Assembly (NCBI GenBank): GCA_964187785.1
Contig: OZ076409.1
Coordinates: forward strand, 4,404,001-4,468,000
Source: Amphiscolops sp. MND2022
Taxonomy: Eukaryota
Reading direction: 5' to 3'
Length of the DNA stretch: 64,000 nucleotides
This document shows positions 9,218 to 36,300 of the stretch, in pieces (the first letter of the stretch is position 1; each line of letters begins with the position of its first letter). The notes beneath the pieces were generated by a model. It was not told the DNA's origin, searched no databases, and was given only the letters and a program-made list of their open reading frames with translations. The position numbers were made by a program, and so were the translations under genes.

Positions 9218-9932
9218 GGCGAATGCGATTTTGCTAGTCGTCTTTTCTAGTCCGTGTAGAATCAGAGGTGTTGTAAACCGGTATAGTGCTTAATTGCGCG
9301 CTATATAAAGAATTCACATTAGTGGTATAGTTTTATTGATGCAGTAAATGGTTATTGTACCCTGACGCAGAATTATTACTGTGCCTCACAGGGTCCTTTT
9401 TACTTGAGATGGGTCACTCGTAGACTTAGACTTTTTGCCTATCAGGGGTTCATTTGCTAAGAATTAGAGTCAAATTATAAAAAGTTGCGTAGGTTGTCAA
9501 ATCTAAGTAATCGAGGCTGCTGTAATGCGTGTACACAAAATTTGTCAAATGTACCAAAACTTTTTTCGGCCATTGAAACGTAATCTCACTCGTTGATGCT
9601 TCACACAAGTTCCATTCTCTTTTGCTGGGGAAACATACCATTTTCCTAGTTCTGCCTCCCTTTGCTCTAAGATCTTTCCTTCTCAGATGCGGGTTTACAA
9701 TCTGCTATTTTCTTCGGGTGTTTTTTGGAGCATGGGTGATGATAGAATAACTCAAGGTCCCATAGGTTTCAAAAATGAAATGTAGCTCTTCTAGCTCTAT
9801 AAACGGATGCCTTGACTTGAAGAGGTCCGTAAAAACTTCAAGTGATTTCTGAACATGTATTAGCAGATCCTCGTAAATTGAACATCTGCTAAATGGGCCC
9901 ACATTGCTCAATCACCGGAACATGTGTTTCAG

Positions 9933-12900: not shown

Positions 12901-13604
12901 TTCTACCAAAAGTTCTACCCTTCAATTTTGGCAATCTGTATACTACCTTTGAACAGTAAACGAGTCCCCTTCGACAATAACAACCCATACTGGATTTAAC
13001 GGAAACCGGATATAACGAAATCCGGATATAATGTTTCTTGGAGAATGTTAGAAAAGGGATATAATGGATATAACGTAACCGGATATAACGAAATCCGGAT
13101 ATAATGTTTCTTGGAGAATGTTAGAAAAGGGATATAACGGATATAACCGATATAACGGATATAACGAATCCGGATATAATGTTTCTTGGAGAATGTTAGA
13201 AAAGTGATATAACGGATATAACCGATATAACGGATATAACGAAACCGGATATAACGAAATCCGGATATAATGTTTCTTGGAGAATGTTAGAAAAGGGTCC
13301 CCTTTCGATTTTTAGGATTTTTAGAGTTGATACAAAATGTGGAATACTATGTGTGATACTATGTGGAAAATTGGCCATTTTGTCGGTAATATTTAAAATG
13401 CAATATTTTGACTCGTTGGTTCGTTTCCAGCAAAAGCAGAAAACAAAATTTGAAAACATGTTTTTGAAGTCATTGTTGTCAAATAATGAGGAAAGCAGCC
13501 TTGCCTCTCCTCCCGTAGAGTTTCTGAAGCCTGGAGATACTGTCAAATGTAGCATCGAAGGGATCGGGGAGCTGGAAAACACAATTGTCCAAGAGAAGAT
13601 CTGA
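9933..13604 (+). CDS. FAHD2: Fumarylacetoacetate hydrolase domain-containing protein 2-like, 3' exons join(9933-10179,10538-10717,11849-11887,13519-13604); 5' exons not found in window
   Basis: Motifs [53 protein letters not shown] and FLKPGD. Exons sum to 552 nt with compatible phases; two donors are GC. Confidence 0.92.
11422..11818. mobile_element. hAT-derived non-autonomous element
   Basis: TIR TAGGGGTGTGCG...CGCACACCCCTA and 8-bp TSD CTAGAAAT (11414-11421, 11819-11826). Minus-strand [12 protein letters not shown] resembles the hAT dimerization motif. Confidence 0.85.
12990..13296. repeat. Minisatellite built from GGATATAAC subunits plus ATGTTTCTTGGAGAATGTTAGAAAAG (4 copies)
   Basis: Directly visible tandem repeats of variable period. 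Confidence 0.9.
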
Positions 13605-15303: not shown

Positions 15304-15386
15304 GCTATAAGCCTGTTCTGTCAAAATTACGGCCAAAAATACCTTTTAATCTTTTGATGACGTAATCCTCGCCATTTCCGGTCGCA

Positions 15387-18300
15387 ATGCCGTTTGATGA
15401 ACGGTCTTTCGACAACCCGTATCTCAACACGAAACCCCAAAGTTCCGATCCGAAGCACATTCTCACAGAAAAGGTGAAAAGTAGGATCCAGAAATTCATC
15501 CAGCAGATGCTTGGCGTCATCCGTGAGAGATTGAACGATGGTAGTATTTCCAGCAAAGACACCTCTGTCTACACTGGCTTATCTGGAATTGCGCTGACTC
15601 TGATCACGATCGAAGAGACCGGAATGTTAGGTGAAGACAGTGGTAAGAAAGGGTCTTCTTTCTTGTGCTTGAACTTTTACAAGTCGGAAAAATGTTTCGA
15701 CTACTTAAGCTAAGCACTTGTACCTTTTTTTCTCCCGACCTTTTAATAAAAATTCTAAATTTGTCGCAAACTGTCCATACGATTTTTACGGATATTTGAA
15801 ATATTAGCTCTGATAATCTTTTTGGCCAAACTGGCAACCAATCCTGGAAAATCATCTCGCACAACTTTTCATGTGATTCGGTTTCTGATTTTGCGAATGT
15901 CGAATATGTTTGTGCCAGAGTTTTGACATCGCTATTTTTTTCGCTAATTTCAAAATCGCTATTTCGCTGAAAAACTTTCGTCAAATTATTAATTGTTCGA
16001 ATTCAAGAATGTTCAAATATTAACATTAACTTGATTCAATTTTTGCAAGAAAAAAAAACAGATTTTTTAAAATACTGTGTGGGTTTTACAGAGAATTTTT
16101 TTACAGAGTTGAATATTTTTGAAATTCATTTTCAAACTCCGAGAAAATTTTGAATTTGGACAATCTATTAATAGCCGCTTATTTGAATCGCTAATAGAAT
16201 CGCTGAAAAAACTCCGTGTGGCCGCTAAGTCGCTAAATTGCTGATTAGCGGTGTCAAAACTCTGGATTGTACTGAGCTCTCTTTATCTGTAAAGAGCTAG
16301 CTCTTTATCTGCTAGTTTGGATGTTTTTTAAAACTAAAAGCACTCTAAATGGAAATGAAAGAAGATCCTTACCCCCCCCCCCTTAACCAGGTGGCGAACT
16401 TCTGTCTCTGGCTTATCTACTCACAAAAGGCAATCACTCCAGAAAATCCAGTTCATTCACTCTTCTCTGTGGCTCAGGGTTGGTCCGAGATAGTCTTGCA
16501 AAAAGTTGCAAGTTTTAACGTTTTTTCGTGATGGATCCAAGTTTAAGCCTCGGAAGTTTTTTTCGAATTTTGTATTCAAGTAATCCACTCATTGCAAAAT
16601 ATCACTCATAAGGTGGACTTTAACCCTAAATGGACGAGGAAATCTCAGAATGCATCCAAACCGCAATATCTCCTAAACTTTTCAAGTCCGACAAACGATT
16701 TATTGCGTGTTCAACAAAGATAACCAGGGCTTTCAAATTGATTTTTCAACTGCTGGGTTTTTGAACACTGGCTCCGGTTTTTGCTCCAAATGTTTGCATG
16801 CCTCGTGTTTCTGACTGCATTTCAGCATGTTTCAAAACATGCTAGGGCCACTTTGACCTAATCTTGATACCAGTGGGATAAAATGGCCACAAACGAAAAC
16901 TGGAAAAACGGAAAATCTGCGCTCATTTTTCTCTGATTTCTTGGTCCCGTTTTCTTGATTTTGGAGACATCAAGTCAATATTCCGTGAAAATGCATGCAA
17001 TGCTATGTTAGTTATATCGTCTGAAAACCTTATTTAAGAGTTTTCTTTAACCATAGGGTCAGCTGGTGCCTTCAGAAGTTTGCAAAAACTAACTGGTACG
17101 AAATCTTACCATCTTCCATTTAGGGTTGAAAAAGTCAAATCTGAGGTTCGTAGCATGCTTGCGTAGAATGGGAATTTGCCATATTTCGATAGTTTATTGT
17201 AGACAGGGTTGGCTGACTATAATAATTTTCAACATCAACAAGTTATTTGATCTTGAAATCAACAGCTTCTGACTTTCGCTCCGAGCACTCTACAATCGGA
17301 ACGCGTTCTCATCGCGTCAGACTTTTTCATTCGAATGGAAAAATAAAAATCAATTCGGAGTTGAAAAACCCAAAAACTAGTTTTCTAATCCATTTTTTGA
17401 ATTCATTACACAAAAATAGTCAGTTTTCTGCATGCTGATTTTTAGGAGTCGGAAAAATTTTCGGCTGCTTCTGCAATCGTACTTTTTCTCCTGACCTTTC
17501 AATGAAAATTTCAAATTGCTCAAACTGTCCATACGATTTCGTTAAAATTTTGCACAGCCATTCTATACGCAAAGGTGCACAATGTCATTAAAATCGTATG
17601 ACTGGCATTTGAGAAACGCTTTTTTTGGACTTTTTGATTATCACGGCAGCTTCACTGCCGAGTGACAACATCGCTTAATGAAAATGTTGCTTTTGAATCA
17701 TCGAAATTGGAGCTAAAATTTCCAAGGGTTGGTGCTTACATCTGCTGCACAGTGTACCTTTTATCGATCTTAAAGTTTAATACTTTTTAAACGAACAATT
17801 CCTGAACGGTAACATTGAAAACATCTATGGCACTGAAGGAACCGAATGAAACCCGAAAACCTTCAACAACAGGAAAAGTTGGCTTTTTGATGGTGCCACT
17901 TCAAAATTGTTTTTTTTTTGTTTTCCTTTTTTATATAAAGTAGAAGTATTAGGAAGTAACGAGTCGTGTACCGGCTGTACTTACAGAGAATATCGTAAAT
18001 AACGAATATACGGAAGGTTCGATGTACGACCGAACGCTGACCTATACTAATCAGAGTTTTGACACCGCCAATCAGCGAATTAGCGTCAGCGCAGAATTTT
18101 TTCAGCGATTCAAATTAGCGGCAACTAATAGATTGTCCAAATTCACAGTTTCCCCGGAAAATACATGGAACTTCAGAATAAATTTCGAAAAAATCAAACT
18201 CTTACACTTTTAAAACTCACACAGTATGAAAAATGTTTTTGCAAAAATTGAATAAAGTTATCATTACACTTGCGATAAGCAAGTGTTATGGGAAAGTGCG

Positions 18301-21300
18301 AGTTTTTTTTTCCGCGCGGCAACTCTCATTTCAGACCGCAAGTCGCATAATTCAGACTTTTTTGGTCTAGCGGTAAGATGCTTGCTTTTCAACCCATAGG
18401 GTCCGGGTTCGAACCCGCGCCTATGCGCTAGTTTTTTTTACAAGTTTTTCGAAGCATAAGATTCTCTTTTTTTCGACAATATGAGACAGACCCCCCCCCC
18501 CCTCTTCGAATTTTTCGAAAATTTTTTAATGTCCCCAAAGGGTCCTCCCTTAATTTTTTTGATATTTTGCAACAGAACGAATGTTAAAAAATTAAAAGGG
18601 TCTCTTCTTTCAGATTTTTCGGCACTATGAGACTGTTAAAAATTCGCATTTTTTTCGAAAGTTTTTCGATAAAAACACATTCGGTGTTTTTATATGCGAC
18701 TTTTTAAATTTTTTTTCATCGAAGTCCCCCCTCAATTTTTACCAAAAATGAAACGTTTTGCGACTGTAAAAGACTCGTCAAGGTTTTCGGCGCTTTGCGA
18801 CTTCAAAAAAATTGACGGTGACCTTCAAAAAATTTTTTCGAAAATATTTTGGAAAAATTTCGGAAAATTTTTGAAAAAATTCAAAAAATTTTTTCCTCCA
18901 ATTTTCTTTTTTTAAAGGTTTTCTGTTGAGGAAGATGGGTTTTTTGCTGTTTTCAGTTGAGGAAGAATGGTTTTCGAGACTTATGCCCATCCCTTCGGGT
19001 ATTTTTTGGCGCTGTAAAATTGATGAAATTTTAACATAGTCCTTTTACCCTTGGTTCTACGTATGATATTGCTTATTTGGTTTTCAAAAGTTCGCAAGTG
19101 TTTGCGAAGCACGGCCCCCGCCTCTGTGTTGAATTTTGAAACATACTTGAATTCAAACATTTACTATATTGAAGTAAAAGTTTTTCAGGGAAATAGCGAT
19201 TTTGAAATTAGCGGTTTAGCGATTAGCAAAAAGTCCAATAGCGATGTCAACGCTCTGATACTAATCAACCCCTGTGTACCTTCTTCAGCGGTGCTCTAGC
19301 CGTGGAAGCGATATCACGGCAGAAATTGGGAAAAGATAGTCGGGAACTTGTGAAGGAGATCATTGATTTGCATGAACACGTGGCCCACCAAGACCCAAGG
19401 ACGTTCGACGAGTTCCTTTACGGCCGAGTTGGTTACTTGGGAGTGTTCACGCTTCTCAACAAGTACTTCCCGGATCTGAAAGATGCCAAGTTGGAAGACA
19501 AAATATGCGATGCCATCATCAAAAGTGGCATGAAAGCAAGCAAGAAACACAATGCCAGTTAGTTTGATAACTTTTCATATTGAAATCCGGTTCTTTCTGC
19601 CGTTCAATTTTTTGTTCAATGACGACTCTTTATGTATTAAGACTTTATGTATTTAGACGACTCTTACAATTCTAAATACATAATTTGACGTGAAACTCGA
19701 GTATAGCAGCAGTAAAACTGAAACTGAACCTAATTAAAGGTGGCCTAAAAATAGGAATCCAGTGAAGCGTCTTGTTACCATAAAAACTGCTTACTCGGCT
19801 TAAATTATTTTCAAAAATTGACACTAGTGAGATTCGAACCCCGTTTTCATGCTCTAAGCCCGTAAGCCAATGCTCTAACCACTGGGACAACTGCCATATG
19901 ACAACCACAAAAACTTCAGCTTTTCGACAGTGACCCTTTGACTTTTTGACATTGTGACTCGAGGAAAAACTATGAAAGCTCAAAAAGTGCCTTTTCGTTT
20001 TATTAGAGAAAATCCCCCAACACGGAAGCACAGTTTATTCATGAAGAAAAATATTAAAGTGTTATTTATGAAGTTAAATACTTAGAGGATTGTCTCTACA
20101 GCTGTTTTGCAACTTCCAGCGAAACATGACCCTAATTTTTTGATATTATTGTACAAAATAGCAAAGATTCACGCTTTGCTGTATGAAAGCCCCTATTTCA
20201 TCAGTAATTTTACCCGTCATACAATTTAAGAAGCCACTTTTAACTGACAGTCATGGGTGTTAGGTTGGTTTATTATTATTTGTGCGATAAGCAGGAATAT
20301 TATTGAAACAGATGTCAACTTTTTTCAGTAAAATTCTCGTCGCGATACTGAATAATTCAGATTTTTTGTTCGGCAGTAACTGTAAGCGTGAGAATTAAAT
20401 TTCTCAAGCTGTCGACGACAATTCAATTCTCGTGCGATGGAACGAGTGAGTGGTAATTATGCATTCGTACGCTGACGTCATTGAGATGAAGCGAACGAAT
20501 ATTCTTAATTATGCTTTCGTACGCCGAGTTATTGAGATGAAGCGAATGAGTGTTAATTATTCGTTCGCCGAGAGGCTCGCCTGCATTCAAATGCGAATGC
20601 GAAACTTCGTCTACTTTTAGTAGTTATATTTGCTTTAGTCCGAGATTTAAATGCGGTATAAGCTGGTACAGTGATCAATTGAGTAGTTAAGATTTCCGCC
20701 GGCCTTTCAACGGGGGGGGGGGTCCTCGGTTTTCACGGGGTGGGTCCTTGCTCTGAAATTTTAGGACCTATCCCTAAAAGGAAGGGGTCCTTCCAAATTG
20801 GTGTTCGGAATTGATTCGGCTTTTGACTGCGAAAGTAAATTATTGGTCGGATTCTTTTTGTATTCGTTTTTTGGATTCTTTCTGTATTCGTTTTTGGAAT
20901 CGGATTTTTGCGAAAGTACATGTAAAAGCGTAGACACTCTTGTTTATTCTTTGAATGCCTGAAAGTTTGGAAAGTACTAACCTTGAAATTTTGTTGTAAT
21001 TGAATTGTAAAGCTGGATTGACTAATACTGGTACAACAACTAAGTCGGGTTGTAGTATTGTTGTGCCAAGCGATCGATCGGCCAATAAAAAGTAATCTAG
21101 TTTGTCGTATAATTCACACCAAAGTTTAATAGGGTACGAGAGGGTGTGAAATTTATGTACAGTTTTGTTCGAATGCATTATTCGTCTGATGTTACGAACG
21201 TGTTTTGATAAAAATTCATTATAAAGCAAATATCAGCAGCAGGAAGGAATGCTGAGAATCAAAATTGGAAATGGACCCCCAAAAAATAGACGTTGTAAAA

Positions 21301-24300
21301 GTGCAGCAAACTTTTCATAGACTTTCATTAGACAATTCAGACAAATTCGAAACTTATCAAAAGTATGTGCTAAGTTTTTGTTTGGTATATCTAAAAAATT
21401 GCAACTTCAACAACATTACTTTGGACCATTTGAAATATTTGCTGAAAGAAGAACCAGAAATCAAATGTGAAATTTTCTACAAGTATTGCAAAGTGTACAG
21501 ATTATTTGTGATTGTTCGCGACTCGCAAGAGCTTATGGGGGCGTTTAGTGACGTGTGTGACTGCTTGGATAGAAGAACCAGATTGCAAAAGTTTTGGTCA
21601 TGCTCAGTTCGCCCTCTCTGGAGCATTTTGAAACTCAAATATTCAGCACAAGCCCACTGGTTCCGTGAATTGGAATGTTGAATGAGAACGAAATTCTTGT
21701 TATTGATTTTGAAGGGTTTGACTACAACGGTCTTATCGTTAAAGAGCTGAGCGTTCACAGTAAAAATTATCAAGAAACCCTACTTTTCAAACCTCCTCAA
21801 GCCTTTTCTACAATTTCAACTATTAACCGCGACTCGATAATATTCTTAACAAAAAGAATACACGGTATTGACTGGGACAGTGGCGTTTACCCTTACACTT
21901 CTATCCATAATTATTTGGCCAGTTTACGACTTCGTTTTCCCAACGCAATTGTTTTTGTCGACGGACATGTGAAGAGAGCATTTATCTCCAACTATTTTAA
22001 AAAAGTTTACATTTTGCAAAGGCTTGGTTGTCCCCCAATTAAACATTTATGTGTTAATGCTGTGGTTTCTTGTGGGAACCACGCAAACTATCTCCCATGG
22101 AATAGTCAACAACAACATTTCTGGCATTGCAGCAAATTGAAAACTGCTGTTGCTTATCAGTGGTTAGAGAGTAGGCGCAATGCAAACCAATCAAAAGTTG
22201 ACTCCAAACTTGAGCGTCTGTGTGTAGGCTGTTCCAAACAATAGTGGTGTGGTGGAAGCAAGCAGGACTTTTGGAAAGAATATGTCAGTAGCTTCTAGTG
22301 CACGAGACTCAAAACTGTCCAGGATGAAAAAGAAACTACCTCCTTTAAACATGCACATTTCCAGGCCACCTCCTCCTGTCGAAATTGACAAAAATTGCCC
22401 GAATCTACCACAAGAAGTGAGGGACGTAGTCAAATCCAAAAGTGTCCTCAGAATTTGGTTCTATTACGGATCCGGGAAAACTGGCTCAAAATTCAAAATC
22501 GATTTGGAAACAAAAGATAAAGAATGGAATTCATTTATAATGCTGGAAACCCAAAGAATATTCGTCTTACCAAGGAGCAAAAGTTTGAACTGACTTTTTG
22601 TGTGATTTGATATAATGCTTTTTTTGTTTTGAAACTAACTCTCTCTGTAGTGTAGTCCTTCGGTGCCTCAATGGCAAGAAAAATCTTGTCTCTGCACCTT
22701 AACCTACCTCAACATTGACAGCCAACAAAAAACTTGTGTAAACGACACACAAGGTCCGGCACGTACTAAGGAAACAATGCATGATGTTCCGCAGTACAAT
22801 TTTTTTTGTATCTTTTGTACTAACATTTTATTTAACAATTTTGAACCATTTCTGATATACAACGTGTGTGTAATAATGTACAATTAATTGGAATTGAATT
22901 TAATAATTTCGTAGTACACTTTTTGAAAAATGGGTTCAGAAACAGTTGATTTACCAGATGTATTATCATGTCAAGAAATTGTGTTCGATAAAGAGAATAA
23001 CGAGAGACCAGCCTGGAAATTTTGTTTTGCTACAAACATACCACGATCGCAAGTTATATTTTTTGTTCATGTACTCTCAGCTTTCTTTGTGATAACATTT
23101 TGTCTGGTGAAACTAATCTTTTTTGAAGTATCATGTGAAGACATGCCATTTTGGACATCACTTTTGGCTGGATCAGTTGGATATCTTTTACCTAGCCCAA
23201 AATTATGAACAAAATCATTTTTACTACAGAAAGAGTTTTCATGTCAGTTGTTGGACCATCTGGATCTGGAAAAACCCGACTGATTTTTTCTATGCTCACA
23301 TCCAAGACCTTTTATCCACGCTTTCAAAAAATTTACTACTTTTATCGCGAGTTCCAACAAATTTTCAAAGAAGTGGAAAAACGGATGAACATCGAGTTTA
23401 TCAGTTGTCTAGATTTTGATTTGATAAAGACGCTTCAGGAGTGTTTGCTGATATTTGACGACTCTTGCGAAGAAATTTACCAAGATAAAAACTTTGCAAA
23501 AATTGCAGTCTCTGGCCGACACAGAGGAATTAACTGTATTTTTGTCAAACATAATTTGTATCATCAAAGTAAGTGGTCACGTACAATTGACCTCAACACA
23601 ACCCACATTATTCTTTTTAATTCTCCTCGTGACACACAGCAAATTGAATATCTTGGAAGACAATTAAACAAAGCTGTATTTCTAAAAGAGTGCTACACAG
23701 ACGCTGTTGCAGAACCACATGGTCATTTACTCATTGATTTGGATCCAAAGACAAGTGAATGTCTACGCTTTTGTTCAAACATTGTAGGACCAGGACCAAC
23801 AATATTTTATTTGCCTTCGTCACAAGCAAAAATTACAGAAATTAACAATGAGCGAGAAAAATTTGCATACACTCAGTCTCTTGGAAAAACTCACTTCAGT
23901 ACAGCAACAAAAACTTCTACGACATTGTGACAAGGAATTTTTGAAATTTTGTTGCGAGTGTGCAATCAATGTTGTGAATGGAACGGTTGGTATCAACGTG
24001 GACGAATTAAAACAGTACGAAATCCAACTCAGATTACTTTGTAAAAGGTCTACCTCCACTAAGGAACGCAGAAAAATTTTAATGTCACCAAAAGGTCTCA
24101 AATTGTTAAACTTCATTATTCGGCCTTGTTTCTGTTACCTGACAGATTGAATTCCGTTATGAACACCCAAGAATTTGTACTTATCCCAAAAAGTTTTTAT
24201 ACTCAACAGAAACACTCCACACTGCAAGTTTTGAGAGACCCAGAAGTTGAACAAAAGGCAAAGTCTCTCACTCTACTACAAAGAAACAATACTTTTCCGG

Positions 24301-27300
24301 ACCCCTCAACAGTAGAAAAGAAAGAAAAAACCAGTAAAGAAAATATTTTAAAGTCTTTGGATATGCTCACAGCGGCACAAAAACAAAGAACGAGAGAAAT
24401 TTTGAACAAAATTGAATCTTCCGAAACAATTGATTTTGATGAAACAGGCGATATTACAGTAAACAAAATTTCCACAAAAATTTCGCTCTCAACATTTCTT
24501 TATAATCTGCAGCAACCCAACAAAAACCTAACTGATCCTTCATACTCTATCATTCTTAAAGAATTGATGGTAAATCCTAATTTAGTGCCTAACCGGAACG
24601 CCAAAAACATTTTGAACCCTAGTACAACAAGAAAGAGAGCAGAACCCACTCGAGACGAATCAGATGCCAGCAACGAAGAATCTGAAGAAATTGCTAAAAG
24701 CAAAGCGTCTGGATCGAAAATATGGACATCTCTCGGAATCTGAAAGAAAAACCCTCGAGAAACTTTACACACAAGGTCCAGCTGCTTATGGTAGCGTTGA
24801 AAACTTGAAAAAAGCTAGTAAGCTTCCAAAAAGGAAAGTGGAAACATTTTTGGCTCAAACAGACGCTCATACAAAATATCACGCTCCCAGAAAAAAATTT
24901 CCACGATTGAAGGTTCAAGCTTACAGAATCAATGAGATTTGGTCGATAGATGTTGCTTATATGGACAAATTAGCAAAATACAACAACGGTGTGAAATACT
25001 TGCTAGTTGCAGTTGATGTACTATCGAGATTCCTACGGGTTGAACCAATGAAAACAAAAAGTGCAGCAGATTCAACAAGAGCATTCAAAAGAATGATAAC
25101 AAAGTCCATTCCCGAAAAAATCTGGTCAGACAAGGGATCAGAGTTTAAAGGGGAATTTAAGCAGTTCTGCGATTCCAAAAACATTGACATTTACAGCACT
25201 CATAGTGAGACAAAATCTGCTTTTGCAGAACGTAATATTCGTTCTCTAAAAAACATTATATATAAACATTTGGAAAAGAGATGGTCTTATCAATACATCA
25301 AAAAACTCCATGACTTTGTTGACATCATAAATTCACGAGTAAACCGAGTGACAGGATTGGCTCCAAAGAAGGTTTCAGATAAAGATGTACCTCATTTGAT
25401 TTCTCTGGTTTCTTACAAGTCCACTAAACAGCTACGAGTGCCGAAATTCAGAGTCGGTGACTTTGTGAGAGTGTCAAAAGAAAACTTACCCTTCAAAAAA
25501 GGTTACAAACAGAATTTTACCGACGAAATTTTTCAAATTGAAAAAATCGCAACTCTCAATCCCCCAACTTACAACTTACTGGACTCTGAGAAGGAAAAAC
25601 TCTTGGGCAAGTTTTATCAGCCTGAATTGATTTTGGTGAAAAAGAAAAATGGACGAATTTGAAGTTCATTTATTATCCACAGCGTCATTAGAAATTTTTG
25701 GTGACAATACATTGGCAGCATTCAAAAATCAACTCCCACAAAATATTTCCCTGGAAGGCGACTGGCGTGTGGCTCTATCAGAAATTATTTTTCCCTCGGA
25801 AATTAATAACGTTTACACAGACTTTTTTTATTACGTTCACACTACCAAAAAGAAGGAAGATGAAGAAAACCTTGACGAAATTGATGAAGAAAAAGCAGAG
25901 GAAATTGAAATTGACTCTGAACCAGTTGTTCCATATTATCAAAAACTAAAGATAAGACCTTCGATGTACAGTCATATCAACAACCTACTTTTTGAAATGC
26001 GTTCAAAAGTAAATTTACTCACGGAAGACGGTAAACATAGATCCACCGAAAATGGCCTAGAAATTAAATTTGATGCATATGCTGGCTACACTTTTCCTAA
26101 CAGAAACATTCCCAACCTACTTGGATTCAAGGGAAAAGAGACTGCTTTTGGTATTCATATAGGAAACGAAGACATCCTGAACAGTAGATGGGTTGTGAAT
26201 GACTTTCCGGTGGATTTGATTTCTGGCATTAGTCTAATTCTTGTTTACACTGATTTGATTGAATATCAAAACACGGGCGACGTAAAAGCACCCGTTTTGA
26301 GAATCATTGATAGTGGGAAACGTGTTGAAAGTGGCAAGGTCGTGACAACCCAGAATTTGGAAACAAGATCATTTTTTGATTTACAATACAAGAAACTGTT
26401 GGTTCAAAATATTCAAACAATAAGCATTCAACTCAGAACAGAGACTGGGATCCTGGTACCCTTTTGTGGTAAAGGTCAAGTTGTTTTGACCCTAAAATTT
26501 AAAAAATTCGCCTAATGGAAGACTATTACTCAAAGCAAGTGTATTTACCCCATTTCGCCAGTTACAACAGACAACGAGGTAGTGGAATTGGTGCACTGGC
26601 AGCCGGTATTGGCCGAGTGGCTTTACCCTTTGCAAAAAATTTTATTTTACCTGCTGCAAAAAAAATTGGCAAAGAATTGCTCGTTCAAAGTGTCCCTGAG
26701 GTCTTTGATGTTATTGCAAAGCGAAAATCGCCACGTGAGGCTGCTAAAACAGCTATGAAAAAGACGATAAAGAAGCAGATTGGTGGAAAAAGCAAACGTT
26801 CTTCAAAGAAACGAAAAACCATTACGAAATCAAAACGCAAACAGAGAAGTCGGTCCGATTTCTTTTCAAAAGTCAAAAATGTTGCCTAATATTTTACCAC
26901 TCGAAGCTTCACATAGTTCCCTCGACATTTTTGAGCGATCACCTGTTTTGATTACATTTGACTCTTCCTTTGAACAAAAGATTGGCCCGATTTACTCCCC
27001 CAATGGACCAACATTGGAATTTGAAGTTGTAGGAGACCGAAATAATTTTTTGGACCTACAAAAAATTTTTCTCGAGATAAAATGCAAAATTAAACAAAGC
27101 GATGGAAATGACTTACGATATGATGCAACGGATGCAACACAAACAGACACTCCTATTTTTGTGAATAATACATTACACTCTCTATTCTCCGAATGCACTG
27201 TTACTGCTAATGGAATAAAAATTTCCAATGCAAACGGTGTTTACGCACACAAGGCCTTTATTGAAACCGAATATTCGAATGGCAAGGAAGCCAAAGAAAC

Positions 27301-30300
27301 ATGGTTACGTTGCCAAGGATATACATATGAGCAGCATCCTGGGAACAGTACAACAACTCCATTTACAAACAGAGAATTGGAGTCGAGACAGTCTGGAGAA
27401 TTAACATTTTTTGGAAAAGTTGCAGCTGATGTATTTTCTTGTGATAAACATTTACTGAGTGGAGTGACTTTGCGAATTTCTTTTGTCCGTTCGAAACCAG
27501 AGTTTGTTTTGATTCATGATGACGTTGCAAAAAATTACAAAATTACCATTACCCAAGCCAATCTTTACGTCCGGAAAATGACAGTTTCTGAGCAGGTTTT
27601 TATAGCCATAGAGAAAACTCTGACAAAAACTCCAGCTCTGTATCGGTACACAGAGGTTCTACCCAAAACTTTTCTCATTCCGACAGGTAGTCGCAGTTGG
27701 AGTAAGGAAGACGTTTTCAGTCGAGAACCAATTCGACGATTCGCTTTGGCGCTCGTCAGTAATGCGTCTTTTCTTGGTTCAAAAGACACAAATCCATTTC
27801 ATTACCAAAAACATAACCTAAACGAAGTTACTGTTTACCGGAATGGATACCCTGTTGCAGGAACTCCTTTGGCAACAGATGATCTAAAACGAGTTTACAT
27901 GTCAACAATGGATGCTCTCGCCTTTGGTCATCATGGACATGGAATTCCTTTCGCCGACTATGCTAATCATTTTGTAATGGTGTTTGACCTGACTAGCACC
28001 CAACAAGCATCTCATGATTTTCTTTATCCTGAGCTCACTAACGCAGCCATTTCGCTCGAGTTGAAGTTTTCAGCAGCGCTGGCAGTGAACACTGAGGTGT
28101 TTCTGTTGGGCGAAAAAGCATCAACAATTTACATTGACTCTCATAGAAAAGTCTCCAAAAACGTCATGTTAAACCCTACCACTTGAAAAATGGATGAAGA
28201 TTACATTGCCCACCTAATAAAAAACAGCCCAAGATTGAAATACAAGTTTGGAGGAATTTATCCCGCAGACAAGTTTCCTATCCTATTACCCAACAACACT
28301 TTTGTAATTGTCAATTCAGAAAACTCAAACAGCGCTGGGAAACATTGGATTGTTTGGAGCAACGTGAAAGGTACTTTCAACTTTGCAGATCCCCTTGGAC
28401 TAGACCTATTTTTACATTATCCTAATATTGCTAAAAGAATCTCCGCGATACCAATCCAAGTTCAGCAGACATTAAAAGATGCCACAAAGACGCCGTTACA
28501 AAATCAAAATTCAAACTTGTGTGGTTTGTATTGTATTTATATTGCTCATTTTTTGTTAAGTTCGTATTATCCATTGATTTCTTACATTTCTGAAACTGAT
28601 TTGCTTCGCTTTGTAAAAACTCTCATGTAATTTAATGTTTAATTTCAAACATTTTTATTCTCAAACAATTTCATTCAGAGAAAAGGTTAGTACAGGCACA
28701 AAATTAAGCGATCCGTGACCAGTTTGAAAAATATCAGCAATGAGTAGGAAATGACCACCATACGGTCCAAGCATAACATTTTCCAAGCGTTGTATTGTTC
28801 CTTGACTCAACCCAGAGCTGACTTGCACAGCCTTGTCACATTTTTGAACAGAAAAACAGATTGATGGCAAGAGTTTCTTTGGGTTTCGATTAGGAGGGTC
28901 ACAATTGTATTGAACGGCTTGATCCAATTTTTCAAAAATTTCACCACATATTTCCTTTTCATCACTGTTTGCAATTAGTAAGGCGTAGGTTGAATATAAA
29001 CATGGTAATAAATAACTTTTGGGTTGCCCTTTATAATTTTCACCAAAACACTGGGCCAAAACATGATAGTGATTGTCTGGCAAAGCGTTACAAAGCCCAT
29101 CATGCACAGGTGAGTGTAAGCCAATGGAAATAACAACATCTAATGGGAAGTCCACGCCAGCTTTGGGTTTTTCCTTGAATAAAAAGAAGCGAAAGTTTTT
29201 TCTAAATTGCTTAAAGTAATCGGGAGAACGCTCAAACATTGCTTCCACCATACTTTCTAGGATCAATATTCTCCTTGTTTTCTCCGTCTACGTTGTCCCC
29301 GTCATCCTCCTCCGCCACAGAATCAACAAATGAGGGTTTCTTAATTTTTTTGCACTTTTTTGTAACTTTTTTGATATTCGACGGTTGTAGAACTGATTTT
29401 CCTTTCCACAGTAGAATTTCAAACTCTTCTTTTGTCAACGTGATTTTTTGAACCAGAGCAAATTCAGCGTCTGGCTTCTTTTTGAAGAGTTTTAGAAACA
29501 CGTAGGTTCCTGTATGCTCGTATGTTTTCACCGTTGCTCGCAATATTCTGTTGGATTTTTCTGATAAGTCACAGTAATAGTCTCCAAAATCCTCGTCCTT
29601 AGCAAGAGTAAAATCACCAGAGAACATTCTGAATGTTGGAAACAAAATCAAAAGTATGAAGAACCTGGTAAATATTGCAAGGTCAATGTCTGAGGTGGGC
29701 GGGCTTTTATGGTTCAAGGTTTGGCCACCCTGCTTTAATCTTTCATGTAAACAACAAACGCTTGCACCGCCGACTGATAAATCAAGATCATTACCACCCA
29801 CGTTGATCTTTCAAGTAGACAGCAAACGCCCAGGCCACGACACTGGTGTTAAAATTCAAAACATCTGAAAAATCAAAATAGACTCGATGTAATAATTCAA
29901 AACACATTGTTACCATGTGGAAATCGGACCACCGTGAGAAACAAAAAACTGTAGATTCACTAGTGTTCAAAACTCAAGCCGTTATTCGATAAATTCGCTA
30001 CCGCTCAAACAGTTGGTCTTGTCCAAGTCGACGATTCAACTATGGCTACTGTCTTTACACATTTTACAAGCAAACGCTTCATCATTTATGAAACACAATT
30101 TCAAAAAGCGCTCTCAATAATTGAACAGATGAGGTCTGACGAAAATGACCGGTGGGAAACAAAGCAACATATTCTGTTACCAAACATGGTCTATCACAAG
30201 TTGAGCAAACAACCGACTGAAAAGACGATTCTGGAAAGAAAGAGAAAGATTGACTCTGTGGACTGTGAAGCAGCGTCTAACTGGGATATAGAAAGTCTTC

Positions 30301-33300
30301 ATCGTTGTGACCTACCAATGCTACCTATACAAATCAAACGCATCCTGTGTAGAGACGACTGCGCAATGGTTCCATTAACGGAGAATCAAATGGGTTTCTT
30401 CAGGGAGGTTGATTCACTTGAAGATTTTTGGGGAGTTGAACATGATCCTGCATCTCCATCACCACAAGTCTCCCCAGAAGTTCTGGTCTGCACAACAGAA
30501 GACGAAGAGACGAAAGATGGTGATGATCTAACAGTGAGTCCTCAAATTGTGACGCCTGATAGCACTCGAACTGCAGCGTTGGAGCCACCACCAGTGAAGA
30601 AGGCAAAACAGCAGGAAAAGAAACTTTTGAAGCGATTCTAACCAATCTAACAAATACTGTCAAAAGCTTACTAACCAATCTAACCAAATACTGACAAAAG
30701 CTTACTAACCACGTCGAAATTTGAAGACATTTTATGCAGAGTTCTGTTTAAAGTAGCCTAGGAAATCGTTTTTGAGAGTTGAGTTTGCGAAAAATTTACA
30801 AGACTTTTCCACAGGAGTAAATTTCAAAAGTCGCGTAGTTTACGAGATTTTGAACATTTTTTAAACTCAATTTTTGATCATTTTTTAGTCAAAAAAAAAA
30901 CAAACATTTTTCAACATTGAAAAAAAAGTTGCGGGAAGTCCCCTATGGAAGTACACCAGGACATATGATTTCAAAGAAACAATTTTCGAAATCTCAAGCT
31001 CTCCACTACCAAAAAAGGAAATTCCATGCCACGTAGAGAAATTGCATAATTTACATGTGATACCGCCATATAGTCTGCGTAGAGGTATTTAAATTGAAGA
31101 GGAGGAAAGTAAAGATTTGAATCGAATCAAGTCAGTACTTGTGCAGGAGATTTTGAGTGTCTACTGGAGGCTTGGGTTAACCTCAACCCGATTCTTGAAG
31201 AGTAGAGCTGTAACGGTCTACCTGCTCCAAGAGAGGTTAACCAATACTAAGACCCCAGTAGACACTCGTACTGTGCAGGCTGGGTTAGGCCCGTCTTACC
31301 CAGTACATTGTGTCTACATCATGGGAGCAGTCAAATTACCAAATAGCAGGTGAGAAGACAATATGCTTTGGAACTAAAAAATAATGAACAAAAACAACAG
31401 TCGACTAAAGACAACACAATTTTCCAAACCAAAAGAACTTAACCCCTATGAAGGTACACTAAACGAAGCTATTTTGGGAGTCGAAGCTACCGAAATTACC
31501 AATATGTTGGAAATAATCGACATTTTCCCAATTGGACATAGTAGACCCCTATTATCTTACTCGAAACTAAGACATTTTTACAATTAAAGAGTCGAAAGTA
31601 ACTAAAATGCTGATCTCGACTTATTATTTTTCAAACCGACAGAACTTATCCCCTATGGAATTACACTAAAGTAAGGCATTTTGAGAGTTAAAGACATTTA
31701 AAAAGCTAAAATGCTGGACATAAACAACAATTTTTCAAACCGACAGAACTTAACCGACAGAACGTAGAGAAATTGCATAATTTACATGTGATACCGCCAT
31801 ATAGTCTGCGTAGAGGTATTTAAATTGAAGAGGAAGAAAAGTAAAGATTTGAATCGAATCAAGTCAGTACTTGTGCAGAAGATTTTGAGTGTCTACTGGA
31901 GTCTTGGGTTAACCTCAACCCGATTCTTGAAGAGTAGAGCTGTAACGGTCTACCTGCTCCAAGAGAGGTTAACCAAGACTAAGACCCCAGTAGACACTCG
32001 TACTGTGCAGGCTGGGTTAGGCCCGTCTTACCCAGTACATTGTGTCTACATTATGGGAGCAGTCAAATTACCAAATAGCAGGTGAGAAGACAATATGCTT
32101 AGGAACTAAAAAAATAATGAAAAAAAAACAACAATCGACTAAAGACACCACAATTTTCCAAACCAAAAGAACTTAACCCCTATGAAGGTACACTAAACGA
32201 AGCTATTTTGGGAGTCGAAGCTACCGAAATTACCAATATGTTGGAAATAATCGACATTTTCCCAATTGGACATAGTAGACCCCTATTATCTTACTCGAAA
32301 CTAAGACATTTTTACAATTAAAGAGTCGAAAGTAACTAAAATGCTGATCTCGACTTATTATTTTTCAAACCGACAGAACTTATCCCCTATGGAATTACAC
32401 TAAAGTAAGGCATTTTGAGAGTTAAAGACATTTAAAGAGCTAAAATGCTGGACATAAACAACAATTTTTCAAACCAACAGAACTTATCCCCTATGGAAGT
32501 ACACTAAAGTAAGCCATTTTGAGAGTTAAAGACAAATAAAACACCAAAATGCTGGACATAATCAACAATTTTTCAAACCAACAGAACTTATCCCCTATCG
32601 AAGTACACTAAAGTAAGGCATTTTGAGAGTTAAAGACATTTAAAAAGCTAAAATGCTGGATATAATCAACAATTTTTCAAAGCGACAGAACTTATCCCCT
32701 ATGGAAGTACACTAAAGTAAGCCATTTTGAGAGTTAAAGACAAATAAAACACCAAAATGCTGGACATAATCAACAATTTTTCAAACCAACAGAACTTATC
32801 CCCTATCGAAGTACACTAAAGTAAGGCATTTTGAGAGTTAAAGACATTTAAAAAGCTAAAATGCTGGATATAATCAACAATTTTTCAAAGCGACAGAACT
32901 TATCCCCTATGGAAGTACACTAAAGTAAGCCATTTTGAGAGTTAAAGACAAATAAAACAGCAAAATGCTGGACATAATCAACAATTTTTCAAACCAACAG
33001 AACTTATCCCCTATCGAAGTTCACTAAAGTAAGTCATTTTGAGAGTTAATGACATTTAAAAAGCAAAAATGCTGGATATAATCTACAATTTTTCAAACTG
33101 ACAGAACTTATCCCCCATGAAAGTACACTAAAGTAAGCCATTTTGAGAGTTAAAGACAAATAAAACACCAAAATGCTGGACATAATCAACAATTTTTCAA
33201 ACCAACAGAACTTATCCCCTATCGAAGTTCACTAAAGTAAGTCATTTTGAGAGTTAATGACATTTAAAAAGCAAAAATGCTGGATATAATCTACAATTTT

Positions 33301-36300
33301 TCAAACTGACAGAACTTATCCCCCATGAAAGTACACTAAAGTAAGCCATTTTGAGAGTTAAAGACAAATAAAACACCAAAATGCTGGACATAATCAACAA
33401 TTTTTCAAACCAACAGAACTTATCCCCTATCGAAGTTCACTAAAGTAAGTCATTTTGAGAGTTAATGACATTTAAAAAGCAAAAATGCTGGATATAATCT
33501 ACAATTTTTCAAACTGACAGAACTTATCCCCCATGAAAGTACACTAAAGTAAGCCATTTTGAGAGTTAAAGACAAATAAAACACCAAAATGCTGGACATA
33601 ATCAACAATTTTTCAAACCAACAGAACTTATCCCCTATCGAAGTACACTAAAGTAAGTCATTGAGAGTTAAAGACAAATAAAACACCAAAATGCTGGACA
33701 TCATCAACAATTTTTCAAACAGACAAAACTTATCCCCTATACCTTGCAGACCAACAAAATTTCATTGAGCTGCTTTGACGATAAACGTTATATAATGTCG
33801 AACGGCGTTGATACCTTACCTTTTGGACATTATTCTTTGCGAGACGATGTAATATTTAGAGAAATTGGGGCGGATAGCGATTGGGGGAACGAGGAGGAGG
33901 ACGACTTTATTCAGTCACCGATACAGTCAAACTCCGTCCAACCAGCTATATTTTCCCCACCCGACCCTGGACTTAATCAAGATGCAATAGAAGAAAGTGA
34001 ATTAACAGACGTTATTTACCTAACGTTTTACACAATACCCAACCAAATGTATTTTTAGACTGTGAAGCAGTGGAAGTTCCCACCCGTGGTCCCCCTCCTC
34101 AGAAAAAAGTCAAATTTTATATTGATAATGAATTACAGTAATATCATTCACTAATTTTTCTTTGTATAACGTTAACAGCATAATAAAGCTTGAATTTGTG
34201 AAATTCATTTTGTTTTCAAACAAGAGTTGAAACGAAGAATGGTGGTTTACAGTTATATTAAATTTAACTTGGGTAGGTCAGGGGTTAGCAACAACATGTA
34301 GATTCAAAACGAATTTGTTGGGAAGTTTAAGATAATTTACAGGTAGAAATAAGAACACCGCTACCACTGCATTTGGAGGAACGCATATAACTATTCCTAA
34401 TAATATTAAGCGTACATACAGATAAGAAAGTTGGAAATACCACTCCCTTTATTTACAAGAAAGTTGTACCAGTATTAGTCAATCCAGCTTTACAATTCAA
34501 TTACAACAAAATTTCAAGGTTAGTACTTTCCAAACTTTCAGACATTCAAAGAATAAACGAGAGTGTCTACGCTTTTACATGTACTTTCGCAAAAATCCAA
34601 AAACGAATACAAAAATAATCCGACCAATAATTTACTTTCGTAGTCAAAAGCCGAAGTATTTCCGAACACCAATTTGGAAGGACCCCTTCCTTTTAGGGAT
34701 AGGTCCTAAAATTTCAGAGCAAGGACCCACCCCGTGAAAACCGAGGACCCCCCCCGTTGAAAGGCCGGCGGAAATCTTAACTACTCAATTGTGCGGTAAA
34801 CAATGAGTAAACCTGGAGTGTATTGGTATTCCAGATATGATTCGATTATTGATAAAAGATTAAACCAGAAATAATAGTGTGCCCGGAGGGGCCTATTTTC
34901 TAATTACTGTAGTTTTGTCCAACTTGGATTAAAGAAACTAATATGGCGGCAAGAAGAGAGTTTCTTCTATCCATAGTTTCTTTTATCAGTTGTCCTTTCA
35001 ACGTAGAAAGTATGTCTTGCACAAAAGCGGATGAGTGAAAACGTTTCTTATATCCAAATGTTGCTTTTATCCGTGTTTGTTCCATCCGTGTTTGACTCTA
35101 TAATCCATTGAATCAAATAAAAATACTAAATGTTAATCCTGTGTGTGGGAGACTTCTGCCTAGGATCCCCTCTAGAAAGGGCTTTTTCAAAAAAGTATTC
35201 GTTTGGTCTGGGTTGCACTGAGAAATTTCTCCTCCCTGGTTAGAGATGAACCTATTCTGAACGGCACTATTATTATTCTATTGGCGTTATTAAGGCAGGA
35301 CATTAGTGGCAACTTTTTGACCCCATTAACTTGCCAAGACACAAAATTGCGGAAAGTGAGATTTCAACTTCAAAGGAAGCTAAGGCACTCGACATCAAAG
35401 GGGGATGAATTCAGTGCACGTGTCTCGGTTTCTGAGATTTCGGGTCCTCATTTCCGCAAAACGCTTGCAGATGCACTGTAATGGGGTTTTCCAAATCTGT
35501 TTCTAATGGGAAAATATATAACTGCGCTGGTTGATATCGTAATAGTTATAATGAGATCACGAACTTTTTCTCGAATTGTCTTGATTATTCTCTTTGCAGA
35601 AGTCCCCCTGTACTACGAGTGGCACGAGCAGGAGTATGTGGGTGGTGCTCACGGGTACGCGGGAATATTCTACTACCTCCTGCATCACAAGGGTCCGGTT
35701 TGCACCGAAATCGAATTTGTTGCTATATTCCTCTATTTTTTGAAGTCGAACTCAATATTTTTCAAATAGATTGTTGCTAAATTTTTCAGTTTTTTGAAAT
35801 CGAACTTGATTTTTCTTGAAATCGAACTTGTTGCTAAATTTTCTCTGTTTTCTGAAATTGAACTAAATTTTTCTTGCAATCAAACTAGATTTTTCTTGAA
35901 ATCGAACTTGTTTCTAAATTTCTTCTATTTTCTGAAATCTATCTCGTTGCGTTTTCCCGTGCAACCCTGATTCGCCCTGTTTTGTGACAAAGAGTGTCCT
36001 TCGGTGCAGAAGGTGCTGCATAAGGAGTTGAGGGAGAGTGTGGAGTGGTTTCTGGGGCTGCAGTACCCGTCTGGCAACTACCCCTCCTCCATAGGCAGTC
36101 ACAGGGACAAGCTGGTCCACTGGTGTCACGGGGCACCCGGTGCTGTCTACACCCTCATAGCCGCATACCAGGTTGCTATCTGCATTCAGTAGGAAGGGCG
36201 GAATCAGATCTAACGCTTTGTGATTGGTGGAGAACACCGCATCTGTTATTTTGAGACATTTGATTGGTTTAGATCTTGTTCAGTTAGATCTTATTCCGCT

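What the first reader, a model, noticed from the sequence alone, without database searches (positions are those of the whole stretch)
20682..34785. Polymerase-less Polinton/adintovirus with an intact virion and integration module inside an intact host gene
Seen: both TIRs, a 6-bp TSD and open frames for ATPase, integrase, penton, core protein, major capsid and protease, but only about 30 recognisable C-terminal PolB codons. LanCL exons on both sides stay in frame. Known: Polintons replicate with a protein-primed PolB whose N-terminal part is thought to supply the terminal protein. Inference: a helper-dependent or defective-interfering endogenous virus that could still supply capsids and be replicated in trans. 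About 3 kb of repeats sit where PolB is missing and might keep the genome at a packageable length.
Basis: partly seen in the sequence, partly recalled or inferred. Interest (0 to 1): 0.8.

Follow-up and report, generated by a model that had tools for sequence, protein, structure and literature searches.

The report
Polymerase-less Polinton provirus that moved
This is a young integrated Polinton/adintovirus-like virus that lost its DNA polymerase gene to a block of host repeat DNA yet still inserted at two places, so it probably borrowed the polymerase of its many full-length relatives in the same genome.

Summary
Window 20682-34785 is a 14,104-bp element with about 350-bp inverted ends and a perfect 6-bp duplication (CAATTG). 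Its open frames include a packaging ATPase, rve integrase, penton, basic protein, double-jelly-roll capsid protein and adenain-like protease. It lies in an intron of a LanCL-like gene.

The same 1.07-Gb genome holds on the order of a hundred or more near-identical relatives. Six of these were read end to end; they are 16.2-17.1 kb and carry a 1388-codon protein-primed PolB. In the window copy, 4.9 kb (PolB codons 1-1249 plus upstream DNA) is replaced by 2.8 kb of a dispersed host satellite.

The right array-PolB junction occurs at exactly one other locus (contig 2, 99.46 Mb), with different flanks and a different perfect duplication (GGGGAC). The polymerase-less form therefore existed before at least one of the two insertions, and a post-insertion deletion or an assembly collapse is unlikely.

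Limits: only 2 copies carry the junction, the second has a frameshifted penton gene, and there are signs of recombination among copies. Expression, packaging and interference could not be tested. Supply of PolB in trans is inferred, not shown.

The parts
20676..20681 (.). left copy of the 6-bp target-site duplication CAATTG
20682..21037 (.). left terminal inverted repeat (starts AGTAGTTAAG; holds a 24-bp tandem unit at 20849-20895)
21271..22593 (+). three open frames of unknown function (136, 189 and 103 aa). The 189-aa frame has weak, feature-based leads to Maelstrom / 3'-5' exonuclease-like clusters.
22930..23208 (+). 92-aa open frame, unknown function
23205..23930 (+). A32/FtsK-type packaging ATPase (Walker A GPSGSGKT read by eye)
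   Evidence: Pox_A32 E 2e-6, 27.9 bits over the 22.8 cut-off
23848..24743 (+). two open frames of unknown function (100 and 194 aa)
24664..25662 (+). retrovirus-type rve integrase
   Evidence: rve E 4e-11
25649..26515 (+). penton (minor, single jelly-roll) capsid protein
26515..26889 (+). 124-aa protein with a strongly basic tail; 'core protein' by position and composition only
   Evidence: no family hit
26879..28186 (+). double-jelly-roll major capsid protein
28190..28630 (+). adenain-like cysteine protease
   Evidence: Peptidase_C5 E 5e-5
28661..29627 (-). two open frames of unknown function on the other strand (196 and 131 aa)
30042..30641 (+). 199-aa open frame of unknown function; also present in full-length copies
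30885..30925 (.). last 41 nt shared with full-length copies before the left breakpoint (30925|30926). It holds a cluster of 7 changed columns shared by both polymerase-less copies.
30926..33740 (.). filler of host origin: a short lead-in, two 731-bp units (31031-31761, 31762-32489), then a 104-bp tandem array (32360-33740, 13.3 copies). It replaces 4,894 bp of the full-length relatives.
33741..34142 (+). remnant of the PolB frame (codons 1250-1388 of 1388). The frame is broken in the acidic tail relative to full-length copies.
34463..34785 (.). right terminal inverted repeat (323 nt, about 35 nt shorter than the left one)
34786..34791 (.). right copy of the target-site duplication CAATTG
19242..19559 (+). 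host LanCL-like exon before the insertion (LANC_like profile 49-139)
35482..35766 (+). host LanCL-like exon after the insertion (profile 144-177). Further exons: 36016-36174, 37653-37802 (duplicate), 40902-41153, 41513-41686.

Best explanation
The element is a non-autonomous derivative of a young, abundant Polinton/adintovirus-like endogenous virus of this genome. In one ancestral genome, a rearrangement replaced 4.9 kb (the region upstream of PolB and PolB codons 1-1249) with 2.8 kb of a host satellite. Both ends, the integrase and the whole virion module (ATPase, penton, basic protein, capsid, protease) were kept. That rearranged genome was afterwards integrated at two or more chromosomal sites, each time making its own 6-bp duplication, presumably with an rve integrase (its own or a relative's). 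Because it cannot make the protein-primed polymerase, any copying between the two insertions must have used PolB from a full-length relative in the same cell. Shown: the anatomy, the shared junction at two loci with different duplications, and the presence of many full-length relatives with open PolB frames. Inferred: that PolB was supplied in trans, that the integrase did the insertion, and that particles were involved.
For: (1) Anatomy: see the observation check.
(2) Family: the left end has at least 40 matches at 97-100% among 245 candidates. A 1-kb PolB piece has 40 matches at about 100% among 225 candidates. A 1-kb capsid piece has 40 at 99-100% among 319 candidates.
(3) Six full-length copies read end to end are 16,187-17,087 bp. 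They share window 20682-30925 at about 99% and 33740-34785 at about 92%. Each has a perfect 6-bp duplication, and all differ (8 of 8 copies, counting the two polymerase-less ones).
(4) One copy gives an uninterrupted 1388-aa frame with Exo and Pol motifs read by eye (FDTEA, HNMAGYD, DANNLYG, SNSAFGK, YSDTDS).
(5) The right junction as a 16-mer (exact) and as a 31-mer (up to 3 mismatches) occurs at 2 places in the 1.07-Gb assembly: the window and C2:99.46 Mb. A 661-bp probe across the left junction matches in full at the same 2 places only.
(6) The C2 copy matches the window only between 20682 and 34785. Its flanks are unrelated and its duplication is GGGGAC.
(7) The two copies differ in satellite unit numbers (14,104 against 14,380 bp), as expected of two real loci.
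(8) PolB frames are uninterrupted in 3 of 7 PolB-bearing loci examined, so possible donors exist.
(9) Contigs of related elements (about 94% alike) in two other public runs continue past 30925 with letters like the full-length copies (table 7). The full-length arrangement is therefore the ancestral one.
Against: Only 2 copies carry the junction. Over 21100-30770 the window copy differs at 18 sites from one full-length copy but at 30 sites from the other polymerase-less copy. Ten sites group window with that full-length copy, against 8 that group the two polymerase-less copies; 7 of those 8 lie within 41 nt of the left breakpoint. Copies have therefore exchanged sequence, which also leaves room for the rearranged segment to have spread by ectopic conversion. 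The last ~170-186 nt of the right end are alike in all types apart from 1-nt or single-copy differences, so a conversion tract could have resolved there. Differences among copies look nearly neutral (rough dN/dS 0.88 for the six virion and integrase genes, 57 non-synonymous and 18 synonymous changes), so there is no sign of selection on this derivative. The second copy has a frameshift in its penton gene.
Confidence: 0.66

Rival explanations
1. Ectopic gene conversion or recombination. Two ordinary full-length insertions existed at C1:4.42 Mb and C2:99.46 Mb. The rearrangement arose in one of them in place and was copied into the other by non-allelic conversion, so the polymerase-less form was never mobilised.
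For: There are signs of sequence exchange among copies: 10 sites group window with one full-length copy, against 8 that group the two polymerase-less copies, and the distances are 18 against 30. The terminal ~170-186 nt of the right end are common to all types apart from 1-nt or single-copy differences, so a tract could resolve inside the element.
Against: The tract would have to carry about 3.9 kb, including a 2.8-kb heterology that replaces 4.9 kb, and end inside the last ~186 nt. By contrast, all 8 of 8 copies read end to end have their own perfect duplication, so insertion is frequent in this family. Both breakpoint-flanking mutation clusters and the whole divergent right kilobase are shared (1 difference in 701 nt).
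Confidence: 0.13
2. Mobilised, but without any polymerase. The integrase alone excised and re-inserted the element like a cut-and-paste transposon, and the copy number rose by repair of the donor site or by transposition during S phase.
For: The element keeps an open rve integrase frame and both ends. Two copies are few enough for such a route.
Against: No excision footprint or empty donor site was looked for or seen. The accepted model for Polintons (recalled from Kapitonov and Jurka 2006; that paper is not held) couples integration to protein-primed replication. The family's burst of near-identical copies suggests replicative spread.
Confidence: 0.1
3. A true satellite-like or defective-interfering virus lineage. 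The polymerase-less genome is packaged in capsids (its own or the helper's), spreads between cells or animals with the full-length virus, and keeps the satellite DNA as a stuffer for packaging length.
For: The full virion module is open in the window copy. With the filler its length is 87-89% of the 16.2-kb relatives, against about 70% without it. Intact vertebrate Mavericks vary only about 10% around 17 kb, which the authors read as a size constraint (PMC8097293, passages seen). The right kilobase of the two copies is unlike that of the 38 other copies scored (93%), as if the lineage had its own history.
Against: There are only 2 copies, and one has a broken penton gene. The filler length is not conserved between them. 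The excess differences fall off with distance from the breakpoints, which fits a mutational scar of the rearrangement as well as a separate history. No junction was found in the metagenome contigs.
Confidence: 0.09
4. Assembly artefact: a collapse or a chimeric join produced the array-PolB junction.
For: Tandem arrays are error-prone in assembly, and no reads of this organism could be laid.
Against: The same junctions occur at two loci on different contigs, with different flanks, different duplications and different unit numbers.
Confidence: 0.02

Closest known systems
Polintons / Mavericks (polintoviruses) and the proposed animal adintoviruses
   Same: Long inverted ends beginning AG, a 6-bp target duplication, rve integrase, A32-type ATPase, double-jelly-roll capsid and penton proteins, adenain-like protease, and protein-primed PolB in the full-length relatives. 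Size is about 16-17 kb (PMC4028283 and PMC8502044, passages seen; PMC3014272 for the 6-bp duplication and long inverted repeats, passage seen).
   Different: The window copy lacks 90% of PolB. [quoted passage not shown] The family's PolB gave no PF03175 hit at E<0.01. It starts with C2H2 zinc fingers, whereas the adintovirus paper reports an OTU domain there (PMC8502044, passage seen).
Internally deleted non-autonomous DNA transposons mobilised in trans by autonomous relatives
   Same: The ends are kept, the gene for one essential enzyme is lost, foreign DNA is taken up in its place, and copies occur at new sites with their own duplications (general description in PMC6431247 and PMC3014272, passages seen).
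   Different: It is not a miniature element. It keeps 11 kb of coding DNA, including its own integrase and a complete virion module; only the replication function is missing. Only 2 copies exist.
Defective viral genomes and helper-dependent adenovirus genomes (recalled knowledge, no call)
   Same: A linear protein-primed genome type that keeps its ends and depends on a helper's polymerase, with foreign DNA that keeps the length nearer to the wild type.
   Different: Here the structural genes are kept and the replicase is lost. Interference, packaging and helper dependence were not tested.
Amplified defective Mavericks of axolotl, tuatara and pike
   Same: Many copies whose PolB is broken. The authors call the amplification 'perplexing' (PMC8097293, passages seen).
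   Different: In those, PolB is fragmented by stops and frameshifts, and no shared deletion junction at sites with different duplications is described in the passages I saw.

Membership tests
Polinton/Maverick (polintovirus) | long terminal inverted repeats | tested here: met
   three arm segments, 94-100% complementary, about 356 and 323 nt in all
Polinton/Maverick (polintovirus) | 6-bp target-site duplication | tested here: met
   CAATTG on both sides; 8 of 8 family copies read end to end have perfect 6-bp duplications, all different
Polinton/Maverick (polintovirus) | retrovirus-like rve integrase | tested here: met
   PF00665 E 4e-11, 43.5 bits over the 32.6 cut-off
Polinton/Maverick (polintovirus) | [quoted passage not shown] | tested here: not met
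   The window copy keeps codons 1250-1388 of 1388 only. Full-length relatives have the frame, so the family qualifies but this copy is a non-autonomous derivative. The PolB assignment rests on motifs read by eye; there was no PF03175 hit at E<0.01.
Polinton/Maverick (polintovirus) | double-jelly-roll major capsid protein and penton protein | tested here: met
   The models match the Sputnik, mavirus and PBCV-1 capsid proteins (E 2e-17 to 1e-15) and the mavirus, Sputnik and adenovirus pentons (E 4e-7 and weaker, TM 0.35-0.59).
Polinton/Maverick (polintovirus) | A32/FtsK-type packaging ATPase and adenain-like protease | tested here: met
   Pox_A32 27.9 bits (cut-off 22.8); Peptidase_C5 23.6 bits (cut-off 21.3)
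Adintoviruses (proposed family) | PolB with an N-terminal OTU-like domain (Alpha or Beta class) | tested here: inconclusive
   The full-length relatives' PolB starts with C2H2 zinc fingers (CTCF chains E 8e-6). No OTU family was reported at E<0.01. No fold search of the N-terminus was done.
Adintoviruses (proposed family) | found as free, apparently exogenous genomes in animal samples | not testable with these tools
   No run of this organism was available. Related contigs (about 94%) in 4 of 4 laid runs do not show free ends.
Non-autonomous element mobilised in trans | the same internal deletion junction at two or more sites with different target duplications | tested here: met
   2 sites, CAATTG and GGGGAC
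Non-autonomous element mobilised in trans | autonomous relatives with matching ends and an open gene for the missing function in the same genome | tested here: met
   Ends are 97-100% alike at 40 or more places. The PolB frame is uninterrupted in 3 of 7 loci.
Defective interfering / satellite virus | packaged into particles and lowers the helper's yield | not testable with these tools
   no data

The most novel reading that the evidence does not exclude
A capsid-encoding but polymerase-less Polinton lineage that lives as a satellite of its full-length relatives. It is replicated by their PolB, packaged, and re-inserted into the germ line with an rve integrase. It recombines with the helper, which would explain why its left part sits inside the helper's diversity. 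It carries host satellite DNA as a length stuffer. This would be an animal counterpart, within a single virus family, of helper-dependent genomes.
Probability: 0.15. Interest if true: 0.75.

Novelty: new variant of a known kind. Interest (0 to 1): 0.42.

Why it matters
Whether Polintons spread as viruses, as transposons or as both is still argued, and how defective copies multiply is called perplexing in print (PMC8097293). Here a shared deletion junction at two sites with different duplications shows that a genome without PolB still reached a new chromosomal site. That is direct sequence evidence that replication and integration can be uncoupled and complemented within a Polinton family. The family is also very young and large: dozens of copies are 99-100% alike. 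That makes its host a good system for observing Polinton activity. In five literature searches I found no described case of a PolB-deleted Polinton that keeps the whole virion module and has been mobilised. The founding paper (Kapitonov and Jurka 2006) was not held, Repbase could not be checked, and no supplementary tables of the papers read were opened. Such a case may be listed there.

Tried and rejected
It scores only 40 candidates per search, so its counts are lower bounds.
- Sequencing runs: no RNA holder is listed, and no run holds half of the words or more (best share 0.14). The four runs laid hold relatives about 90-99% alike, as contigs. They could test neither expression nor the two junctions nor the host junction.
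- The junction 31-mer has 0 matches in metagenome contigs. Capsid relatives in IMG/VR: none by single protein or by alignment.
- PolB against Pfam gave only a weak Endonuclease_7 hit. Against PDB sequences it gave only zinc-finger hits, and against PHROGs only endonuclease VII.
- Loci that share 61-100 nt with the PolB remnant (L033, L034) are small fragments. L035 is a different family (74% identity). L040 gave no match of 100 nt or more. None is a full-length parent with the polymerase-less type of right end.
- I considered that the C2 copy might have two short-type ends and the window copy a recombinant left end. The arm comparisons did not bear this out.
- Earlier notes of this scan: none for this genome.


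Full report
**1. What is there**

Window 20682-34785 (14,104 bp) is bounded by inverted repeats. Three arm segments are 94-100% complementary, together about 356 nt on the left and 323 nt on the right. The hexamer CAATTG stands directly outside both ends.

Between the ends lie 15 open frames of 92-435 aa that I examined.
- Pfam names three of them above its own cut-offs: an A32-type ATPase (23205-23930), an rve integrase (24664-25662) and an adenain-like protease (28190-28630).
- The 435-aa frame (26879-28186) has over 300 relatives in public data, nearly all unnamed. Its model, built from 51 aligned sequences (pLDDT 85.2), matches the double-jelly-roll capsid proteins of Sputnik, mavirus and PBCV-1 (E 2e-17 to 1e-15).
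- The 288-aa frame (25649-26515; pLDDT 84.0) matches the penton proteins of mavirus, Sputnik and adenoviruses.
- The 124-aa frame between them is called a core protein only from its basic tail.

The element sits in an intron of a LanCL-like gene on the same strand. An exon matching LANC_like profile 49-139 lies at 19242-19559. Exons matching 144-177, 185-238, 236-293 and 311-349 follow after the element.

**2. The family in the same genome**

The window is part of a 1.07-Gb assembly.
- The left end has 40 scored matches at 97-100% out of 245 candidates.
- A 1-kb PolB piece has 40 matches at about 100% out of 225 candidates.
- A 1-kb capsid piece has 40 matches at 99-100% out of 319 candidates; six of these score as high as the window itself.

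I read six full-length copies end to end, in two stretches each that were never joined.
- They are 16,187 to 17,087 bp long.
- They share window 20682-30925 at about 99% and 33740-34785 at about 92%.
- Each has its own perfect 6-bp duplication.
- Where the window has 30926-33740, they have about 4.9 kb. In one copy this reads as an uninterrupted 1388-aa frame.

That frame has the exonuclease and polymerase motifs of protein-primed PolB. I read these by eye, and the motif names are recalled. Passages of PMC10748475 state that Polinton pPolBs carry Exo I-III and Pol A-C motifs. Pfam gave no PF03175 hit at E<0.01.

The PolB frame is uninterrupted in 3 of 7 PolB-bearing loci examined. The other 4 have frameshifts or stops.

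**3. The rearrangement**

- The left breakpoint is 30925|30926. The right one is 33740|33741, at the first base of PolB codon 1250.
- Lost: 4,894 bp, namely 1.15 kb upstream of PolB and codons 1-1249.
- Kept: codons 1250-1388. About the first 30 are the conserved C-terminal stretch and the rest is an acidic tail, whose frame is broken in the window.
- Gained: 2,815 bp made of two 731-bp units and a 104-bp array of 13.3 copies.

The gained DNA is not viral. The 731-bp unit has 527 candidate matches in the genome at 76-94% identity (most at 82-94%), often in arrays with a period of about 850 bp. The 104-bp unit forms arrays at many other loci. It is a dispersed host satellite.

**4.

- The 16-mer junction occurs at exactly two places: the window and C2:99463733-99463748 on the other strand. 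The same holds for a 31-mer with up to 3 mismatches.
- A 661-bp probe across the left breakpoint matches in full at the same two places only.
- The exact 32-mer across the left breakpoint finds only the window. The C2 match is one base shorter than the probe, and an indel near the junction would explain the miss.
- The C2 copy aligns to the window from 20682 to 34785 and not beyond. Its ends are flanked by GGGGAC on both sides.
- It is 14,380 bp long, with three 731-bp units and a shorter 104-bp array.

So there are two separate insertions of one rearranged genome. A deletion that arose at this locus and an assembly collapse are both very unlikely.

**5. How the copies relate**

Over 21100-30770 the window differs at 18 sites from one full-length copy, at 30 sites from the C2 polymerase-less copy, and at 49-63 sites from five other full-length copies.

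Polarised against the majority of those five copies:
- 21 columns unite all three copies.
- 10 unite the window with the full-length copy; 8 of these lie in 21541-23098.
- 8 unite the two polymerase-less copies; 7 of these lie within 41 nt of the left breakpoint.
- 7 are private to the window.

Right of the filler, over 33760-34460, the two polymerase-less copies differ at 1 of 701 sites but differ from full-length copies at 16-24 sites. In a genome search with that stretch, 2 of 40 scored matches are about 100% alike, 37 are 93% and one, a shorter match, is 94%. The excess differences are densest next to the breakpoint: about 13 substitutions in the first 70 nt. They thin out towards the end, where the last ~170-186 nt are alike in all types apart from 1-nt or single-copy differences.

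I read the clusters on both sides of the filler as a scar of error-prone synthesis during the rearrangement. An origin of the right kilobase from a diverged relative is not excluded. The mixed pattern in the left part shows that copies have exchanged sequence.

**6. State of the genes**

In the window copy, all 15 frames compared are open.

Among the six full-length copies, five carry at least one frameshift or premature stop in those frames. The C2 polymerase-less copy has a 2-bp deletion in its penton gene.

A rough count of distinct variant codons gives these figures:

| Gene set | Non-synonymous | Synonymous | Ratio |
|---|---|---|---|
| Six virion and integrase genes | 57 | 18 | about 0.88 |
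| Other nine frames | 53 | 30 | about 0.47 |

Most differences therefore look like decay after insertion.

**7. Mechanism**

Shown:
- A genome without PolB came to lie at two chromosomal sites, each with a fresh 6-bp duplication.
- Relatives with the same ends and open PolB frames abound in the genome.

Inferred:
- PolB was supplied in trans.
- An rve integrase (its own or a relative's) made the insertions.
- Possibly, capsids carried the genome.

Rivals are conversion in place (0.13), integrase-only movement (0.10), a true satellite lineage with a length stuffer (0.09) and an assembly artefact (0.02).

On the stuffer idea, the filler brings the length to 87-89% of the 16.2-kb relatives, against about 70% without it. 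Intact vertebrate Mavericks vary about 10% around 17 kb (PMC8097293, passages seen). But the filler length differs between the two copies, and nothing here tests packaging.

**8. Comparison with what is known**

The family is a Polinton/Maverick in every feature tested. The window copy fails the defining PolB feature, so I file it as a non-autonomous derivative.

Non-autonomous derivatives are routine for other DNA transposons. For Polintons, the passages I saw mention:
- Tlr1, once viewed as a non-autonomous Polinton (PMC5499653, PMC4028283);
- an 'apparent absence of nonautonomous copies' in Anolis (PMC3014272);
- amplified defective copies that the authors call perplexing (PMC8097293);
- exchange of the PolB gene between Polintons by recombination (PMC10748475).

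I found no description of a PolB-deleted, capsid-complete, mobilised Polinton. The founding paper was not held, and Repbase and the papers' supplements were not checked.

**9. Verdict**

Its dependence on a helper, its expression and any interference remain inferences. Interest is moderate.

Noticed in passing
L052:2797-6963 (full-length copy, contig 10 of the same genome): The family's PolB starts with C2H2 zinc fingers (CTCF chains E 8e-6, residues 4-88). It carries an endonuclease VII / HNH-like stretch at residues 507-581 between the first two exonuclease motifs. In print, an HNH domain in pPolB2 is called a synapomorphy of oomycete and nematode Polintons (PMC10748475, passages seen). This host has a LanCL gene and, judging by its relatives in marine samples, may be a marine animal, so the distribution may be wider. 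Whether this PolB is of the pPolB2 class was not tested.
   Followed up: partly
window 30885-30925 and 33741-34400: Substitutions and small indels shared by both polymerase-less copies cluster next to both breakpoints and thin out with distance. There are 7 changed columns in 41 nt on the left, and about 13 substitutions in the first 70 nt on the right. This looks like a scar of error-prone synthesis during the rearrangement.
   Followed up: partly
L057 (contig 1, 2.136-2.145 Mb of the same genome), 1401-9780: A second kind of derivative, 8.4 kb long. An inverted copy of the right 1.75 kb (end plus the last 358 PolB codons) is joined to the right 6.65 kb (part of the 199-aa frame, a whole PolB frame and the right end). 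There are no virion or integrase genes. The flanking hexamers are AACTTA and AACGTG, not a perfect duplication.
   Followed up: partly
window 36016-36174 and 37653-37802: One LanCL-like exon (profile 185/197-238) is present twice, inside a tandem duplication of about 1.6 kb of the intron-exon region. If both were spliced in, the protein would carry a repeated segment.
   Followed up: no
window 15366-15710: A frame with a weak match to the end of the LANC_like profile (286-339, E 0.003) lies upstream of the LanCL-like gene that holds the element. It may be the last exon of a tandem paralogue.
   Followed up: no
window 9882-13601: Exons of a fumarylacetoacetate-hydrolase-family gene on the + strand (PF01557, E 2e-29, 2e-16 and 1e-4). 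An exon of a TFIID 18-kDa subunit gene lies at 44661-44981.
   Followed up: no
window 21675-22244: The 189-aa frame near the left end has feature-based look-alikes among unnamed, mostly arthropod clusters (0.95-0.96). It has weak leads to Maelstrom (0.87) and to a 3'-5' exoribonuclease cluster (0.83). These are leads only.
   Followed up: partly
L079 (metagenome contig, 16,152 bp): A distant relative (capsid protein 41% alike) of genome-like length. It has inverted repeats close to both contig ends and a run of similar-sized + strand frames around the capsid gene, with two large frames on the other strand. It may be a complete genome of a related virus in an environmental sample.
   Followed up: partly
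window 20667-30942, as laid in runs X1, X3, X5 and X6: Contigs 90-99% like the element (mostly about 94%) occur in runs labelled 'organism A' and in marine or aquatic metagenomes. A close relative of this family is therefore present in other samples.
   Followed up: partly
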